This document shows positions 21,490 through 28,901 of a DNA stretch of 64,000 nucleotides, one piece after another. Source of the DNA: a virus (lineage: Duplodnaviria > Heunggongvirae > Uroviricota > Caudoviricetes). The stretch lies in the IMG/VR virus record IMGVR_UViG_3300013902_000267; one strand, written 5' to 3'. The position numbers and the translations under genes were made by a program. Under the pieces are notes generated by a model. That model had not been told where the DNA came from. It ran no database searches and saw only the letters and a program-made list of their open reading frames with translations. Within the stretch, counting starts at the first letter, position 1; the number at the start of each line of letters is the position of its first letter.

Positions 21490-24400
21490 TTAAATATTTT
21501 CTTTTGGTAAATAAACACGTGTCTTTTGTTCTTTCTGACGTCCATCAGACCAATTCGAAATTTTAGTTAAATCACAATATACCCGAACTTTCATTCTATT
21601 TTAAAGGGGTTAGACTATACCACTAACTTCTTGAGTTACATCTTGGTAGTCGTTGAGGGCTTTTATTTGTTTCGTATCAAATAACTATCCCTGCTGATTA
21701 TCCATTGTTATATCATTAGAATTTTTACACTTTGGTATCTAATGCTTTAGGAACTTCCAGCATATTCGATGTTTGCTATATATGTCACCATATATAGGGG
21801 CATTTAATTAAAAATTTACCCGATTATTCTGTCATATAAACTTACATGAACTGATCCACACTTTGGACATACACTAAATGGTGTCTTTGAAATATATCCA
21901 CAATCTTCACATTTACAATTAGGAACATTAAATGTCCAATATTGACAACCATTCTCTGCCGCAAATTTCATAATGTGAACAATCTGTTTCTTAGACAAGT
22001 GCTCTGACAAATTGAGATGCGCTGCTGAACCACCATCCAAAAAATCTCCAATATAGTTCTTACCATGTAAGGTAATCTTATCAAAGATTGACAATGTTTT
22101 ATCATTTGGTTTGAATATGTAAGACGCATACAGGTTAGTGTCTGTTGGTACCCAATCAACTCTGTTACATGATTACATAATAATTTTAATATTATTGTTG
22201 AATGTAATCTGATTTATTAATATATTCATTTAGATTTATTAAACCTGCATGAATTTTCCTATGACAATTTGAACATACACATACACATTTTTTTATTTCT
22301 TCATATAGTTTTTCTTTACCTCTCCCTCGATGTTTACCTATTGTAAAATCTTTTTCATTTGGATCTATATGATGAAAATCTATACAACATGGTTCATATT
22401 CACTACATATTATACATGGATTCTTTAATGAATATAACCATTCTGTTTTTCTTTTTTGTGAACGCTTATTTTTGTTCATTATGTATTTCAGGATGTGCTT
22501 TTCTCATCTATTTCCTATATAATTTTCTACATTCTTTACATACTGCACGTCCTTTTTCAAACATTTCTATAGACAATTCTTTACCACATTTATTACATAT
22601 TTTTGTTGTCATATATATTAAATTATGTTTTATTATTTATCACCGGAACATGACAAAAATAACATAACCCAATTATATTAATAAACGCTTAATTATTTCT
22701 AATCAAGTCTCTATGTTACCATAGAGTTCGGACTATTGCATAGTTTTGTTTCACAACAAAACTCCTTTTTATTTAGTCTCTCAGGCTGCCCATAACATTG
22801 TTGTTATTGCTTGCCCCTCGTTATCCTTACTACCGGTACCTAAGGTAATAAAATGTAAGGAACTTCGAGTCAATTAAAAAAGGTTTTACATGGACATTGT
22901 TATTGTTGTCTATCCATCTTCAGAATCCCAATTATAATTCTTTATTGCCAAACTTTCAGCTGGTATACATTCAGTATTGAACGTTAACTTATGACCGTTA
23001 AATGTACCTGCAGCTTCTTGATTCTTTTGCTTTATATATCCAAATATTGTTTGACAAAGTTTTTCATAATGAGGATTTACATTACAAGTAATTCCTAAGA
23101 ATTCTGCCATTTGATTAAGACCATTCAAACCAATTGTTAAATATTGCTTATTCAAATTAATAAACCCTGCTTTATATACAGGTAATAATCCTGCGTCATA
23201 CATATCCCAAAGAAGTTCATTATATGCTGTATGATATTTATATACTCTATCAAGAATATTACCAAAATATTCGCACATATCATCATAATGCTCTTCTACA
23301 TTTTCTTTTGTTACTCCAGATTTCTTAACACTGTTAAACCAGTCTTGAGTTATGCGACTAAGATTCAGGGTTATCACACTTTTACTTCCTGTTTGACGTT
23401 TTCTCCATATATTTCTATATGGTCCGGGTCATATCTTATGTTTATTTAAATAATAAACATTGCACTATTTCGGCATTTAAAACGATTCGTTTCCTAAAAC
23501 GTTACTACGTATCAATAGTAGTCCTACTCCACCTGCTCATCACTTAGGGGATGACCTCCACACACATTAATAATTTTTATATGTTCTACCTATTAACATA
23601 TTCCTAAAATTATTCATTAAATAATTTTTATATTTACCGATTTTTAATTCTTCAATAGATTTGCCATTATTATATTGTTCTCTTAAATAAACAACTTCAT
23701 CTTTAGATAACAATGGTAACTTCTATTTACATTTATCAGTTCTAATAGGCATTTTTACATGCATATATGATTTTCCAAATAATATTTTATTAAATCCACT
23801 CCATGAATATAAATTACTATATTCTTTAAAAATATCATCTTCTTTTTCACCATTTACAAAATATCTTATTCTTATGTTTAATACTTCTTCATCAGATAAA
23901 TTCTTAGAATTTGCATGCATATTTCCTCTACGTGTTCTTCGATCTGATTTATAAAAATCATTTACTTTATCTGTATTATATTCTATACCAATTTCAGGTC
24001 TTGTATAATAATGCCAATATTTTGAAAATCCACTTTTTGACATTCTATCTTTATACATTTCATATACTTCTCCAAAAGTATATTTCATAGAATAACGTAT
24101 TTTTCTTAATTCTAATAATTCATTATCATTTAATATTGCTTTGGGATGCTCCTCCCCAACTTTTATTATAGTTGCAGAATGTCCACCCAATGTAGAATTA
24201 TATCCATTATTATAACTATCATATAATTTAATGTAATATATTTCTTTATTATCAGCTTCATCCTAATTAGGAACATTATCTTCTAATATTGAAAAATTTG
24301 ATTCATTAATATTATATTTTCTCATTGCTCTATATAATTTATAATCACTATGTTTCATATCATTTAAATGTTCTCTTACTCTTATATGATAATGATGTGT

Positions 24401-27400: not shown

Positions 27401-28901
27401 TCATTTGTATCATCATATTGTTCATAAACTTCATAATTAGTATTTTTTATATTATATTTTTTAAAATATCTATTAATAGTACCTTTATGACATTTATATA
27501 TTTCTGAAATTTCTTTCATTGTTAAACCATTATTAACATAATTTATTAAATCTTCTTTTTTAATTATTAATTTAGATTTTTCAATATTCCATTTTCTTAA
27601 ATATTCTTTAATATTTGCTAATGTTGTATTTCCTTCTTTAGCACACTATTTTCGTGTTAAACCTTTAATAACATAATTTTCATATAACCAATCTCTATCT
27701 TTTGTAAAATATCTATAATTAGACATAATTTCAGATATGTAAAATTACATACAGGATTATGTAATTTTTAATTTATTTTAGTTTATGCTGACTATAATCC
27801 TCTGGAGGCCGCAGGTTGGTTAATTGAATACACGACCTATTGAAAGAATTGTTGAATACATGAACCAATAGTTCTTGTACCATCACCTATCTTAATAGGA
27901 TTCGTAAAATCTTTTATTGAACCTTCAACATCATATTGTGATAATTCTTTCTCATATGCTTCAAGTTCTTCATCTGTTAACTCTCTTTCTGAATTATAAA
28001 CAAGTTCATCACGAAGTTTGTTTAATTCGTCTGAACCAAAATCATGTTTTCTCAATGTATCTACATCTTTACACCAATAATTAGATTCATTAAGAAGTTT
28101 CCTATATTTAGGCCCAATCTTATAAAATTCTTTACTATGCAAATGATAATCTTCACCAAACTCTTTTCTTGCAAAATAATCAAAATAAACAAGAAATTCC
28201 GATGTTGCAACTGCACCTGCAAATTGAGCAGCAACTGCAAATACAAGATTTACATACATACCACAATAAGAATCAAGATTTTGTGGATGACATGAAAGAC
28301 CTCCTATTTTTTCTAAACCATTATGAAGGAATGGATACATAGTTATACTTGTGCAATACGGACTTATGGCACCAGCGAAGCTAGACTCATCGTTCTTATA
28401 TATAATATGGTTTTTTAAATCTTTTTGATATTGTTTTGCTTTAAAATTTGGATATAGTTCTTTAAGTTTCCTTGTAATCATACCTCTGCTTACAAGAATA
28501 TTATCAGCTTTATGAATTTCAGCATTTAATACACCGATATTCTTAGAAGAAACATTAGAATTATCATCTACAGTACTATTTGCAGTATTAGATGCATTCT
28601 TATATCTTTCAATAAATGCTTCCTTATTAGCAACCCATTCTCTAATTTCCTTTTTCTTGTTACGATAAAGAATAAATTCTTTCGCAACTTTAGGATAATC
28701 ATGAGAATACAAACTTGTTTCAATTTGATCCTGTATTTCCTCTACAGGAATACCATCATATGGTGTTATTGAGTTTGCAATATTAGCTATAGTATCTTTA
28801 GTATACTTAGTTTTCGTAGACTTAAACGCCTCACGAATCGCTCGTTTAACTGTCTAAACACTATAGTTCTCAAAACTACCATCACGTTTCGTTACCTTCA
28901 T
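21490..28901 (-). CDS. nrdD: Anaerobic ribonucleoside-triphosphate reductase NrdD, split into about 6 exons by 5 intron-like insertions, with a mini-intein in exon 3. Approximate exons: 28901-27840, 26390-26205, 25425-24601 (includes the intein), 23415-22906, 22165-21819, 21578-21490
   Basis: Exon 1: ATP-cone-like N-terminus 'MKVTKRDGSFENYSV-Q-TVKRAI' and 'SPYCTSITMYPFL'. Exon 2: '...ERLRTIITFPV'. Exon 5: Zn-ribbon 'CEDCGY...CPKCGS' ending '...DRIIG'. Exon 6: 'YCDLTKISNWSDGRQKEQKTRVYLPKENI' completes the RxxGY glycyl-radical motif and resembles E. coli 'WNDGKQ..KDRV'. Intervening segments carry HE ORFs and RNA-like conserved blocks. Confidence 0.7.
21579..21818 (-). mobile_element. Intron 5 of nrdD: small (about 240 nt) ORF-less group I-like intron just after the glycyl-radical Gly codon
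   Basis: Exon 5 stops at TAA immediately after '...DRIIG'. The missing C-terminus resumes about 240 nt downstream in another frame. The intervening sequence has GC-richer structured blocks. I could not find a canonical ending at the 3' splice site. Confidence 0.5.
22166..22905 (-). mobile_element. Intron 4 of nrdD (group I-like), carrying a small HNH endonuclease ORF
   Basis: NrdD reading frames break on both sides. The internal HNH ORF is 22192..22479. Confidence 0.5.
22192..22479 (-). CDS. HNH homing endonuclease (small, 95 aa)
   Basis: 'CIICSEYEPCCIDFHHIDP...CSNCHRKIH' HNH zinc-finger motif. Confidence 0.65.
   Translation of the reverse strand: MNKNKRSQKRKTEWLYSLKNPCIICSEYEPCCIDFHHIDPNEKDFTIGKHRGRGKEKLYEEIKKCVCVCSNCHRKIHAGLINLNEYINKSDYIQQ
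23416..24600 (-). mobile_element. Intron 3 of nrdD (group I-like), carrying a GIY-YIG homing endonuclease
   Basis: Exon 3 ends '...GINLGPLCA' at TAA 24598. Exon 4 resumes after an in-frame TGA near 23415. Confidence 0.5.
23567..24463 (-). CDS. GIY-YIG homing endonuclease; TAG-recoded (3 TAG)
   Basis: 'IYKISFPNGKVYIG-Q-T' GIY-YIG motif with TAG at the conserved Gln. Continuous 299-codon frame from ATG (rc of 24461-24463) to TAA. Contains the track fragment 23723..24190. Confidence 0.7.
24685..25083 (-). other. Mini-intein (about 133 aa, no endonuclease domain) inside nrdD exon 3
   Basis: Begins 'CTGEWVN...'. Block B 'RVTPDHIF' (T-x-x-H). C-terminal 'YYCVELCDKNLEPYFLMPNGNITHN' followed by the extein Cys. 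Confidence 0.6.
25426..26204 (-). mobile_element. Intron 2 of nrdD (group I-like), carrying an HNH endonuclease
   Basis: Shares conserved blocks (TATGTTACCAT, GACTATA, TAGTCGTTGAAC) with the other nrdD introns. Confidence 0.5.
25547..26083 (-). CDS. HNH homing endonuclease (HNH_3 type, 178 aa)
   Basis: '[11 protein letters not shown]' NUMOD-like N-terminus. '[35 protein letters not shown]' HNH_3 signature. Confidence 0.7.
   Translation of the reverse strand: [178 protein letters not shown]
26391..27839 (-). mobile_element. Intron 1 of nrdD (group I-like), carrying an HNH endonuclease with HTH repeats
   Basis: Structured GC-richer 5' part (CTGGAGGCCGCAGGTTGG). 3' part has the conserved GTTTAGACTATATCACC and TAGTCGTTGAAC blocks. 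Confidence 0.5.
26779..27726 (-). CDS. HNH homing endonuclease with repeated HTH (NUMOD1-like) modules; TAG-recoded (4 TAG)
   Basis: C-terminal 'CQLCGCHENLQVHHIVP...CKNCH' HNH motif. Three '...KEISEIYKCHKGTINRY...' HTH-like repeats. 316-codon frame, invisible to the ORF track. Confidence 0.6.

What the first reader, a model, noticed from the sequence alone, without database searches (positions are those of the whole stretch)
22166..27839. A related intron family appears to have proliferated within one gene
Short conserved blocks recur in at least four of the nrdD insertions:
- TATGTTACCAT(A/G) at 22713, 25446 and 26690.
- G(T)TTAGACTATA(T/C)CAC at 21612, 25462 and 26497.
- TAGTCGTTGA(A/G)C at 21650, 25532 and 26583.
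This suggests the introns are paralogs that have exchanged or duplicated cores. The HE cargo differs between copies (HNH, GIY-YIG, none).
Basis: seen in the sequence. Interest (0 to 1): 0.6.

Follow-up and report, generated by a model that had tools for sequence, protein, structure and literature searches.

The report
Five distinct self-splicing introns in nrdD
The anaerobic ribonucleotide reductase gene of the giant gut phage Lak-B7 is interrupted by five group I self-splicing introns and one intein. The short sequence blocks the introns share are the standard catalytic core of this intron class, so they do not show that one intron copied itself within the gene.

Summary
The window is Prevotella phage Lak-B7 (MK250026.1, 100% identity). 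The three recurring blocks are real and far above chance, although the reported coordinates are off by 0-8 nt.

On the coding (minus) strand the blocks are:
- the group I intron R element (GTTCAACGACTA, P7 5' strand);
- the S element (GATATAGTCTAA, P7 3' strand);
- a GUAA-capped hairpin.

The same blocks occur in the T4 nrdD intron and in introns of Staphylococcus, Bacillus and Enterococcus phages.

nrdD (28901->21490, minus strand) carries five group I introns and a 188-aa mini-intein. Intron-less alleles in other Lak genomes fix every boundary. Every 5' exon ends in U and every intron ends in G.

The five are not close paralogs:
- Only I1 and I2 show weak, family-level similarity (z 8.3).
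- I2 is far closer to a Staphylococcus phage intron (z 52).
- I1, I2, I3 and I4 have relatives at the same nrdD site in other phages. I5 was found only in Lak-B genomes.
- Presence and absence vary independently among Lak strains.

Related lineages do occupy two nrdD sites when other genomes are included: I1-type at sites a and b, I2-type at b and c, I3-type at d and f.

Verdict: a new, heavily loaded example of a known kind. The paralogy reading is only partly supported.

The parts
21490..28901 (-). Whole nrdD gene (anaerobic ribonucleoside-triphosphate reductase). Six exons: 28901-27785, 26376-26205, 25384-24623, 23396-22912, 22156-21818 and 21572-21490. The spliced CDS is 2958 nt and encodes a 985-aa precursor, or 797 aa after intein removal. 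It contains three in-frame TAG (Gln) codons at 28856-28854, 27839-27837 and 27794-27792.
   Evidence: The spliced ORF is continuous. Pfam finds ATP-cone (6e-17) and NRDD (5.7e-75). Exon 1 matches PDB NrdD structures 4coi and 4u3e. Lak-A1 encodes the same protein with only one intron.
26377..27784 (-). Intron I1, 1408 nt, group I with P7.1/P7.2-type insertions (IA2-like). Elements: 5' exon GUCAGCAU (27792-27785) pairs with the IGS GUGCUGAC (26759-26752); P 26736-26724; Q 26629-26617; R 26594-26580; S 26502-26487; GUAA hairpin 26698-26682; P9 26447-26431. The HE ORF (27726-26779) encodes 315 aa with HTH repeats and HNH_2 and has 4 in-frame TAG codons. It lies in the P1 loop.
   Evidence: I1 is precisely absent in Lak-A1 and Lak-A2 and present in Lak-C1 at 93-97% identity. 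The exon ends in T and the intron ends in G. CM R1 scores 30.5 + 20 bits, or 38.6 bits as one hit. Pfam result. Intron-bearing alleles share a co-converted 18-nt 5' flank.
25385..26204 (-). Intron I2, 820 nt, group I IA2 type. Elements: IGS GCGG 26194-26191; P2 GUAA hairpin; P 26157-26143; Q 26115-26105; R 25542-25527; P7.1 UUCCGAAAGGAA; P7.2 CACUCAAGUGAGUG; S 25470-25455; P9 25455-25438; P9.1 and P9.2. The HE ORF (26083-25547) encodes 178 aa with NUMOD4 + HNH_3 and lies in the P6 loop.
   Evidence: I2 is absent in Lak-A1, A2 and C1. Its 3' core is 81-85% identical to Herelleviridae phage introns. In the alignment with three Firmicutes-phage introns, 97.7% of cells pair and 9 pairs show compensatory changes. 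Same-site orthologs in L050, L071 and L077 score 148-155 bits.
24685..25248 (-). Mini-intein, 188 aa, with no endonuclease domain. It runs from CFDGDT to NITHN, followed by Cys+1, and is inserted in the conserved SSC|CRL motif of NrdD.
   Evidence: Coordinates. Pfam Intein_splicing scores 24.6 bits, below the 35.8-bit cut-off. Residues 476-663 are exactly missing from non-Lak NrdD homologs, where tblastn joins aa 476 to aa 664. The intein is present in all Lak genomes examined.
23397..24622 (-). Intron I3, 1226 nt, group I with a non-canonical P7 sequence. Elements: IGS GUCCUU 24614-24609; P 24557-24546; Q 24517-24504; P7 5' strand GGUCA within 23559-23549; P7 3' strand UGACC within 23437-23424; P9 GAAA hairpin 23422-23405. 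The HE ORF (24463-23567) encodes 298 aa of GIY-YIG type with 3 in-frame TAG codons and lies in the P6 loop.
   Evidence: I3 is precisely absent in Lak-C1, L021 and L022 and present in Lak-A1 and A2 at about 87-92% identity. CM R1 scores 18.4 bits with P7, P8 and P9 aligned. The L061 same-site ortholog and Lak-A1 show compensatory changes in P8 and two other helices. Its 3' core is 85% identical over 88 nt to Enterococcus phage EF1/EF5. PHROG homing endonuclease match at 3.5e-20.
22157..22911 (-). Intron I4, 755 nt, a compact group I intron without P7.1/P7.2. Elements: IGS GUCCAU 22895-22890; P 22873-22863; Q 22824-22813; R CCUGAGAGACUAAAU 22785-22771; S 22739-22726; P9 GUAA hairpin 22726-22709. 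The HNH ORF lies in the 3' region after P9 and is split over two frames (22612-22466 and 22479-22192).
   Evidence: I4 is exactly absent in Lak-B3, B5, B6, A1, A2 and C1. CM R1 scores 25.5 bits (E 1e-4). Same-site orthologs in L071 (77%) and L058 (71%) show compensatory changes in P3, P5 and P8. PHROG HNH match at 1e-22 covers only the C-terminal half of the profile.
21573..21817 (-). Intron I5, 245 nt, an ORF-less compact group I intron. Elements: IGS GCCC(C) 21801-21797; P2 GUGA hairpin 21797-21776; P 21766-21754; Q 21699-21689; R 21658-21645; S 21621-21608. It is inserted one base into the Tyr codon that follows the putative glycyl-radical Gly (DRIIG|YL).
   Evidence: I5 is absent in Lak-A1, A2 and C1 and present at 100% identity in all nine Lak-B genomes. 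CM R1 scores only 11.7 bits (E 0.38 over the window), but the hit is at the right place with P7 aligned. The exon ends in T and the intron ends in G.

Best explanation
The nrdD gene of phage Lak-B7 holds five separate group I self-splicing introns (I1-I5) and one mini-intein.

**Splicing (inferred from the class).** In each intron, the last bases of the upstream exon pair with an internal guide sequence to form P1, ending in a U·G pair. A free guanosine bound in P7, the helix made by the R and S elements, attacks the 5' splice site. The intron's terminal G then takes its place and the exons are joined. This restores one reading frame for a 985-aa precursor. Protein splicing then removes a 188-aa intein.

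**Mobility (inferred).** Four introns carry their own homing endonuclease gene. The enzyme cuts intron-less nrdD alleles during co-infection, and the intron is copied in by repair together with a little flanking exon.

**The recurring blocks.** They are the catalytic-core elements R and S plus a GNRA-capped docking hairpin. Function conserves them across the whole intron class.

**Origin of the five.** They belong to different lineages that reached their own sites independently, for I1-I4 most likely from nrdD alleles of other phages. They are not copies of one another.

**Shown here:** the boundaries, the core elements, the restored frame, the presence/absence polymorphism, the co-converted flank and the relationships.
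**Inferred:** splicing, endonuclease activity and homing.
For: **Boundaries.**
- Intron-less alleles in Lak-A1, A2, C1 and B3 define all five boundaries to the base.
- All five 5' exons end in T and all five introns end in G.
- Joining the exons gives one open frame with ATP-cone and NRDD domains.

**Core elements.**
- Each intron has an IGS complementary to its own 5' exon, P/Q (P4), R/S (P7), P8 and a GNRA P9.
- A covariance model of the IA2 3' half was built from I2 plus three Firmicutes-phage introns. In that alignment 97.7% of cells pair and 9 pairs are compensatory.
- With filters off, the model's top five hits in the 64-kb window come from four of the introns: I2 161 bits, I1 30.5 and 20, I4 25.5, I3 18.4. 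I5 scores 11.7 bits and ranks ninth, below three hits judged or presumed to be noise (one, near 5000, was checked and lies antisense to a + strand ORF). Nothing else in the window is credible.
- Orthologs show compensatory changes for I4 and I3.

**Relationships.**
- Core similarity z-scores: I2-CF5 52, I2-LBC2 35, I2-EF1 34, I1-Lak-A2 intron 39. Against these, I1-I2 is 8.3 and every other within-gene pair is 5.2 or lower.
- The T4 nrdD intron has the same R, S and hairpin strings and scores z 6.8 against I2.
- Best outside matches: I1 84-107 bits, I3 98 bits, I5 64 bits, and I2 130 bits by megablast. The best within-gene pair scores 40 bits and the rest 33 or fewer.
- Same-site relatives in distant phage nrdD genes: I2 in L050, L071 and L077; I4 in L071 and L058; I3 in L061.

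**Mobility.**
- Independent presence/absence among Lak strains.
- The I1-bearing alleles B7 and C1 share an 18-nt, fully synonymous recoded 5' flank that the intron-less A1 and A2 lack. C1 is otherwise A1-like upstream.
Against: - No RNA evidence of splicing was available.
- Rfam's group I model (RF00028) gave no hit, even at E up to 10.
- I5 scores only 11.7 bits with my model and has no relatives outside Lak-B, so its structure has no covariation support.
- The I4 endonuclease is split over two frames and may be dead.
- The helices outside the modelled 3' half (P1-P6) were assigned by eye.
- Very fast divergence after an old intragenic duplication cannot be formally excluded for I1 and I2, since both are IA2-like.
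- The IA2 model includes I2 itself among its four training sequences, so the I2 score is by construction.
Confidence: 0.87

Rival explanations
1. One reading: the five introns are recent paralogs. One intron family duplicated, or swapped cores, between sites inside this nrdD gene, and the shared blocks are the trace of that.
For: - I1 and I2 are both IA2-like. They share a 75-nt 3' tail at 75% identity (E 1e-5) and score z 8.3.
- Exact 13-15-nt R and S strings are shared by I1 and I2.
- In other genomes, related lineages do occupy two nrdD sites: the Lak-A2 intron and I1 (z 39, 45 nt apart); I2-type introns at the I1 site in L064 and L078-80 (99-129 bits); and the I3-like intron at site f (z 27.9), which shares a gene with I3 in L020.
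Against: - Within B7, every pair other than I1-I2 is at or near background (z 5.2 or lower).
- I2 is much closer to Staphylococcus, Bacillus and Enterococcus phage introns (z 34-52) and to same-site introns of distant phages (148-155 bits) than to I1 (38.6 bits).
- The same R and S strings and the hairpin occur in the T4 nrdD intron.
- Architectures differ. I1, I2 and I3 have P7.1/P7.2-type insertions and I4 and I5 do not. I3 has a different P7 sequence. The ORFs sit in L1, L6, L6 and the P9 region.
- The hairpin lies at non-homologous positions.
- blastn finds each intron at only one place per Lak genome.
Confidence: 0.08
2. The blocks are chance matches in AT-rich DNA, and the insertions are not structured RNAs.
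For: - With 1-2 mismatches allowed, the tool's shuffles give counts that are not far below those observed.
- Rfam reports no group I hit.
Against: - Exact copies number 3, 3 and 2 against 0.049, 0.002 and 0.007 expected. All lie on one strand inside nrdD insertions.
- The blocks pair with each other as P7, and they align to the P7 strands of a covariance model with compensatory support.
- The insertions are precisely absent from other alleles.
Confidence: 0.01
3. The insertions are decayed intron relics or free-standing endonuclease cassettes that no longer splice. On this reading nrdD in Lak-B7 is a fragmented pseudogene or is expressed as separate pieces.
For: - The I4 endonuclease is split over two frames.
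- The Jug phage study found no RNA evidence of splicing for one of the gaps in a four-piece nrdD (PMC12880540).
- No RNA data were available here.
Against: - All exons stay in frame and are conserved at 84-88% nucleotide identity with the much less interrupted Lak-A, Lak-C and L020-L022 alleles, with no stops other than TAG.
- All five introns keep an IGS matching their own exon, a U at the 5' splice site, a terminal G and intact P4, P7, P8 and P9.
- The introns are 99-100% conserved across the Lak-B genomes that carry them.
Confidence: 0.04

Closest known systems
Phage T4 nrdD (sunY) group IA2 intron with I-TevII
   Same: - Same host gene and same intron class.
- Same R, S and GNRA-hairpin strings.
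- It carries a GIY-YIG endonuclease, as I3 does.
- Its insertion point (Y|EVN, T|AT) is the homologous codon position to site a (VVY|SIN, T|AT), which an I1-type intron uses in Lak-A2, L021 and L022.
   Different: - T4 has one intron in nrdD. Lak-B7 has five plus an intein, and none of the B7 introns is at the T4 site.
- Core similarity to the B7 introns is only family-level (z 0.9-6.8).
- The T4 ORF lies in the 3' P9 region. In I1 it is in L1, and in I2 and I3 in L6.
IA2 introns of Herelleviridae (Twort-like and SPO1-like phages of Staphylococcus, Bacillus and Enterococcus)
   Same: - I2 shares the full architecture (P2, P7.1 UUCCGAAAGGAA, P7.2, P9, P9.1, and P9.2 with a UAACGA loop).
- Its 3' core is 81-85% identical to these introns.
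- Several introns per gene or region occur there too: CF5 has tandem introns. Three introns in Twort orf142 are cited from my own knowledge.
   Different: - The hosts are Firmicutes phages using the standard genetic code, and the host genes differ (uvsX-like recombinase in LBC2, terL in the Bacillus phages that match I1).
- Here the host is a TAG-recoded Bacteroidota megaphage, and the gene is nrdD.
nrdD of Jug jumbo gut phages (PMC12880540)
   Same: - Huge gut phages of Bacteroidota in which nrdD is fragmented by group I introns, endonuclease genes and intein-like domains.
- Splicing there was supported by metatranscriptome reads.
   Different: - A different phage clade.
- Up to four nrdD fragments are described, against six exons here.
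Multi-intron organelle genes such as fungal mitochondrial cox1 (own knowledge)
   Same: One conserved gene accumulates many group I introns of different subgroups. Each has its own site and endonuclease, with presence/absence polymorphism between strains.
   Different: The setting is a eukaryotic organelle, LAGLIDADG endonucleases dominate, and there are no inteins.

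Membership tests
Group I intron | The 5' exon ends in U, which forms a U·G pair with an internal guide sequence complementary to the exon (P1). | tested here: met
   All five exons end in T. An IGS was found for each intron: GUGCUGAC, GCGG, GUCCUU, GUCCAU and GCCC, each complementary to its own exon end. In I1 the IGS lies after the ORF.
Group I intron | A terminal guanosine (omega G) at the 3' end of the intron. | tested here: met
   All five introns end in G at the only boundary consistent with the intron-less alleles and the reading frame.
Group I intron | A conserved core: P4 (P/Q elements) and P7 (R/S elements, the G-binding helix), with P3 and P8 between the P7 strands. 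| tested here: met
   P, Q, R and S were located in every intron. CM R1 aligns P7, P8 and P9 of I1-I5, although the I5 score is weak (11.7 bits). Covariation supports the I2 type, and is seen by eye for the I4 type and the I3 type. The P3 pairings were assigned by eye.
Group I intron | A score above the curated threshold of the Rfam family Intron_gpI (RF00028). | tested here: not met
   No hit at the gathering score, nor at E up to 10. I regard this as a sensitivity failure of that model on AT-rich phage introns that contain ORFs, because the ORF-less I5 was also missed.
Group I intron | Precise absence from allelic genes, with the reading frame restored on removal. | tested here: met
Group I intron | GTP-dependent self-splicing. 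| not testable with these tools
   It needs in vitro splicing assays or RNA-seq junction reads.
Subgroup IA2 (phage type) | Extra hairpins P7.1 and P7.2 between the P7 5' strand and P3', plus a P9.1/P9.2 tail. | tested here: inconclusive
   Clearly met for I2 (161 bits). I1 has an aligned P7.2 and a P9-P9.2 tail but a divergent P7.1. I3 has a large insertion at that place. I4 and I5 lack it (23-32 nt between R and S). No subgroup-specific models were available.
Intein (mini-intein) | An N-terminal Cys, a block B TxxH motif, a C-terminal HN followed by Cys/Ser/Thr, and in-frame insertion at a conserved host site. | tested here: met
   CFDGDT..., TPDH...ITHN|C, inserted in SSC|CRL. Residues 476-663 are exactly absent in non-Lak homologs. 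Pfam Intein_splicing scores only 24.6 bits against a 35.8-bit cut-off.
   The best within-gene pair (I1-I2) scores z 8.3 and 40 bits. Outside relatives score z 34-52 and 64-155 bits.

The most novel reading that the evidence does not exclude
nrdD of Lak and related gut phages may be a natural arena for ectopic movement of group I introns between sites of a single gene.

Three ribozyme lineages are each found at two different nrdD sites:
- I1-type at aa 357 and aa 372.
- I2-type at aa 372 and aa 430.
- I3-type at aa 684 and aa 887.

The ORFs sit in different loops (L1 vs L5 for the I1-type pair). I3 and its site-f relative show strong similarity mainly in the P2.1-P5 region and differ in their P7 sequences.

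This would mean that site switching and module shuffling, by reverse splicing or by endonuclease retargeting, are frequent enough to observe within one phage family. Lak-B7, with five of the nine known sites filled plus an intein, would be its most loaded product.
Probability: 0.45. Interest if true: 0.55.

Novelty: new member of a known kind. Interest (0 to 1): 0.42.

Why it matters
- **Annotation.** The GenBank Lak records carry no annotation, and Rfam misses all five introns. A gene caller using the standard code, or ignoring introns, would report a string of nrdD fragments and 'intergenic' gaps. The true product is one 797-aa enzyme made after five RNA splicing events and one protein splicing event.

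- **Literature.** The Lak papers I could search describe only tRNA introns (PMC6784885, PMC8346664).

- **A natural experiment on intron mobility.** The strain-to-strain presence/absence pattern gives exact empty sites. One flank shows co-conversion, and lineages are shared with Firmicutes phages.

- **Genetic code.** Intron endonucleases are enriched in the recoded TAG codon. This bears on the idea that recoding delays endonuclease translation.

Tried and rejected
- **Rfam.** Scans at the gathering score and at E up to 10 gave no group I hit.

- **Global pairwise identity of ORF-less cores.** All pairs scored 63-81% because gaps were cheap and the DNA is AT-rich, so the measure was uninformative. 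I replaced it with local scores and shuffle z-scores.

- **MAFFT alignment of I1 and the Lak-A2 intron with the I2-type set.** It misaligned P7.1/P7.2, so the model was built from the four I2-type sequences only.

- **Other model hits in the window.**
  - The hit near 5000 (-) was checked. It lies antisense to a + strand ORF and is noise.
  - A 13.5-bit hit at 22968-23005 lies inside exon 4 and matches only unpaired model ends.

- **Whole-genome scan of Lak-B7 with the model.** It found one further clear group I core outside nrdD (L012) and one doubtful hit (L016). Neither is close to the nrdD introns.

- **ARAGORN.** It found no tRNA around the L012 element.

- **tblastn of T4 NrdD.** T4 NrdD is only 21% identical, so tblastn could not align it across the intron site. 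The site was mapped by reading the junction directly.

- **I4 against the phage collection.** blastn found nothing outside six Lak-B genomes. Relatives appeared only in IMG/VR nrdD loci.

Full report
**Source and layout**

The region is 100% identical to Prevotella phage Lak-B7, MK250026.1. That record carries no annotation. The gene is nrdD on the minus strand. Exon 1 matches solved NrdD structures. The spliced product has ATP-cone and NRDD domains.

**The observation**

The three blocks are present, with coordinates 0-8 nt off those reported.
- Exact copies number 3, 3 and 2. Base composition predicts 0.049, 0.002 and 0.007.
- All copies lie inside nrdD insertions.
- The third block in I5 has one mismatch.
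- The stated range omits I5.
- The range also begins intron 1 too early, because an in-frame TAG at 27839-27837 was read as a stop. Lak-A1 has CAA there and at a second TAG (27794-27792), so TAG is Gln, as published for Lak phages (PMC6784885).

**Boundaries**

Other Lak genomes supply natural intron-less alleles.

| Intron | Window (minus strand) | Length | Absent in |
|---|---|---|---|
| I1 | 27784-26377 | 1408 nt | Lak-A1, A2 |
| I2 | 26204-25385 | 820 nt | Lak-A1, A2, C1 |
| I3 | 24622-23397 | 1226 nt | Lak-C1 |
| I4 | 22911-22157 | 755 nt | Lak-B3, B5, B6 and all A and C genomes |
| I5 | 21817-21573 | 245 nt | Lak-A1, A2, C1 |

- In every case the 5' exon ends in T and the intron ends in G.
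- Joining the six exons gives a 2958-nt frame with no stop other than three TAG codons.
- Exon 3 also holds a 188-aa mini-intein (25248-24685) with Cys1, TPDH and HN|C. Those residues are exactly missing from non-Lak homologs.
- The gene spans 7412 nt, of which 4454 nt are intron.

**What the blocks are**

Read on the coding strand:
- GTTCAACGACTA is the classical R element (J6/7 and the P7 5' strand).
- GATATAGTCTAA is the S element (P7 3' strand).
- TATGGTAACATA is a 4-bp stem closed by a GUAA tetraloop.

Each intron also has an internal guide sequence that matches its own exon end, P and Q elements (P4), P8 and a GNRA-capped P9.

I built a covariance model of the 3' half (P7, P7.1, P7.2, P8, P9, P9.1) from I2 and three Firmicutes-phage introns.
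- In that alignment 97.7% of cells pair and 9 pairs show compensatory changes.
- Run with filters off over the 64-kb window, its top five hits come from four of the introns: I2 161 bits, I1 30.5 and 20, I4 25.5, I3 18.4. I5 scores 11.7 bits and ranks ninth.
- The alignments place P7, P8 and P9 where I had put them by eye.
- Orthologs of I4 (L071, L058) and of I3 (L061, Lak-A1) show compensatory changes in P3, P5, P8 and other helices.
- Rfam's own group I model found nothing.

**Are the five paralogs?**

- All-against-all blastn finds only one significant pair: the 3' tails of I1 and I2 (75 nt, 75%, 40 bits).
- Local alignment z-scores of the ORF-less cores:

| Pair | z |
|---|---|
| I2 vs Staphylococcus phage CF5 | 52 |
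| I2 vs Bacillus phage LBC2 | 35 |
| I2 vs Enterococcus phage EF1 | 34 |
| I1 vs an intron of Lak-A2 | 39 |
| I1 vs I2 | 8.3 |
| I2 vs I4 | 5.2 |
| All other within-gene pairs | 3.1 or lower |

- The T4 nrdD intron carries the same R and S strings and a GUGA version of the hairpin. It scores z 6.8 against I2. The I1-I2 resemblance is therefore ordinary family-level conservation.
- Searches of the phage collection gave outside relatives stronger than any neighbour:
  - I1: Bacillus phage terL introns (84 bits) and a gut phage contig (107 bits).
  - I3: Enterococcus phage EF1/EF5 (85% over 88 nt, 98 bits).
  - I5: fragments in Bacillus, Clostridioides and Staphylococcus phages (up to 64 bits).
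  - I4: nothing outside Lak-B.
  - Each intron occurs once per Lak genome.
- Architectures differ:
  - I1, I2 and I3 have insertions between P7 and P3'. I4 and I5 do not.
  - I3 has a different P7 sequence (GGUCA/UGACC).
  - The ORFs lie in L1 (I1), L6 (I2, I3) and after P9 (I4).
  - The GUAA hairpin is in the P5 region of I1, is P9 in I2 and I4, and appears as the GUGA-capped P2 of I5. It is not a homologous part.

**Wider survey**

I examined sixty-five nrdD loci from IMG/VR.
- About forty have no interruption.
- The most loaded non-B7 alleles have four introns.
- Nine intron sites appear overall: aa 184, 231, 357, 372, 430, 684, 845, 887 and 958 in B7 numbering.
- Same-site relatives in distant phages (43-66% NrdD identity):
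  - I2-type at aa 430 in L050, L071 and L077 (148-155 bits).
  - I4-type at aa 845 in L071 and L058.
  - I3-type at aa 684 in L061.

This is the pattern expected from site-specific homing between nrdD alleles.

**Evidence of transfer**

The I1-bearing alleles of B7 and C1 share an 18-nt, fully synonymous recoded tract just 5' of the intron (tccagaggattatagtca). The intron-less A1 and A2 have agtcgtggtctgcaatct. C1 is otherwise A1-like upstream. The tract also improves pairing with the I1 guide sequence. This looks like exon co-conversion during homing.

- The Lak-A2, L021 and L022 intron at aa 357 is an I1-type ribozyme 45 nt upstream of the I1 site.
  - In A2 its ORF is in L5 rather than L1.
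  - The A2 endonuclease is only 24% identical to HE1.
  - That site is the homologous codon position of the T4 nrdD intron.
- I2-type introns occupy the I1 site in L064 and L078-80 (99-129 bits).
- An intron at aa 887 in L020 and L022 is I3-like (z 27.9). The strong similarity is mainly in the P2.1-P5 region, and the P7 sequence differs. In L020 it shares the gene with I3.

Movement of a lineage to a second site of nrdD has therefore happened repeatedly. It does not relate B7's five introns to each other.

**Rest of the genome**

Scanning the whole Lak-B7 genome with the model added one clear group I core, with a second R/S pair beside it, in an ORF-free gap upstream of an RF2-like gene. It also gave one doubtful hit. 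Neither is close to the nrdD introns.

**Literature**

- The Lak papers available to me report tRNA introns only.
- A 2026 study of Jug phages reports nrdD split into up to four pieces by group I introns, with RNA evidence of splicing.
- A recoding study noted a stop-codon-rich intron endonuclease in another phage.

**Verdict**

The paralogy interpretation is partly supported at best. The feature is a new and unusually loaded member of a known kind.

Noticed in passing
window 28856-28854, 27839-27837, 27794-27792; HE ORFs 27726-26779 and 24463-23567: TAG is used as a Gln codon. It accounts for 3 of 33 Gln codons in the nrdD exons, 4 of 6 in the I1 endonuclease and 3 of 4 in the I3 endonuclease (Fisher p 3.5e-4). 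The I2 endonuclease has none (0 of 3). This fits the published idea that intron endonucleases are preferentially recoded. It might also reflect how long each intron has lived in a recoded genome.
   Followed up: partly
window 27806-27789 (5' flank of I1): An 18-nt, fully synonymous recoded tract, which includes a TAG-for-CAA change, is shared only by the alleles that carry I1 (B7 and C1). It is absent from the intron-less A1 and A2. This looks like exon co-conversion or selection for pairing with the guide sequence.
   Followed up: yes
window 22612-22192 (-): The I4 HNH endonuclease is split into a 48-aa zinc-ribbon ORF and a 95-aa HNH ORF in different, overlapping frames. It is either a decaying gene or one that needs a frameshift.
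   Followed up: partly
L012 37740-38420 (MK250026.1 about 290,240-290,920), + strand: Two tandem group I-like cores lie in a 1-kb ORF-free gap just upstream of an RF2-like release-factor gene. Their R/S pairs are GGTGCAGAGACTATA/AAGATATAGTCC and GCGAAGAGACTATAG/AAAATAGTCC. The first scores 32 bits with the model. ARAGORN finds no tRNA there. The RNA that hosts them is unknown.
   Followed up: partly
L016 36149-36263 (-), MK250026.1 about 486,650: A weak model hit (18.4 bits, E 0.064) lies inside a 1.4-kb ORF-free gap. It has no obvious R/S strings. It may be another structured RNA or noise.
   Followed up: no
window 62092-62187 (-): Rfam calls a 96-nt tRNA (45 bits) next to tRNA-Lys that ARAGORN does not report. 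Its length suggests a long-variable-arm or intron-containing tRNA, like those described for Lak phages.
   Followed up: no
L002 3471-4842 (Lak-A2); L021 6637-7002; L022 6638-7002: The I1-type intron at the T4-equivalent site exists both with a 339-aa HNH ORF (Lak-A2, 1372 nt) and as an ORF-less 366-nt form (L021, L022; 96% identical core). This is a clean pair for studying gain or loss of an endonuclease gene.
   Followed up: partly
L024, L028, L034, L036, L062, L061 (IMG/VR nrdD loci): Some non-Lak phages have a larger insertion at the intein site, 540-980 nt longer than expected from the match to the B7 mini-intein. These are probably inteins with an endonuclease domain at the same SSC|C position.
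   Followed up: no
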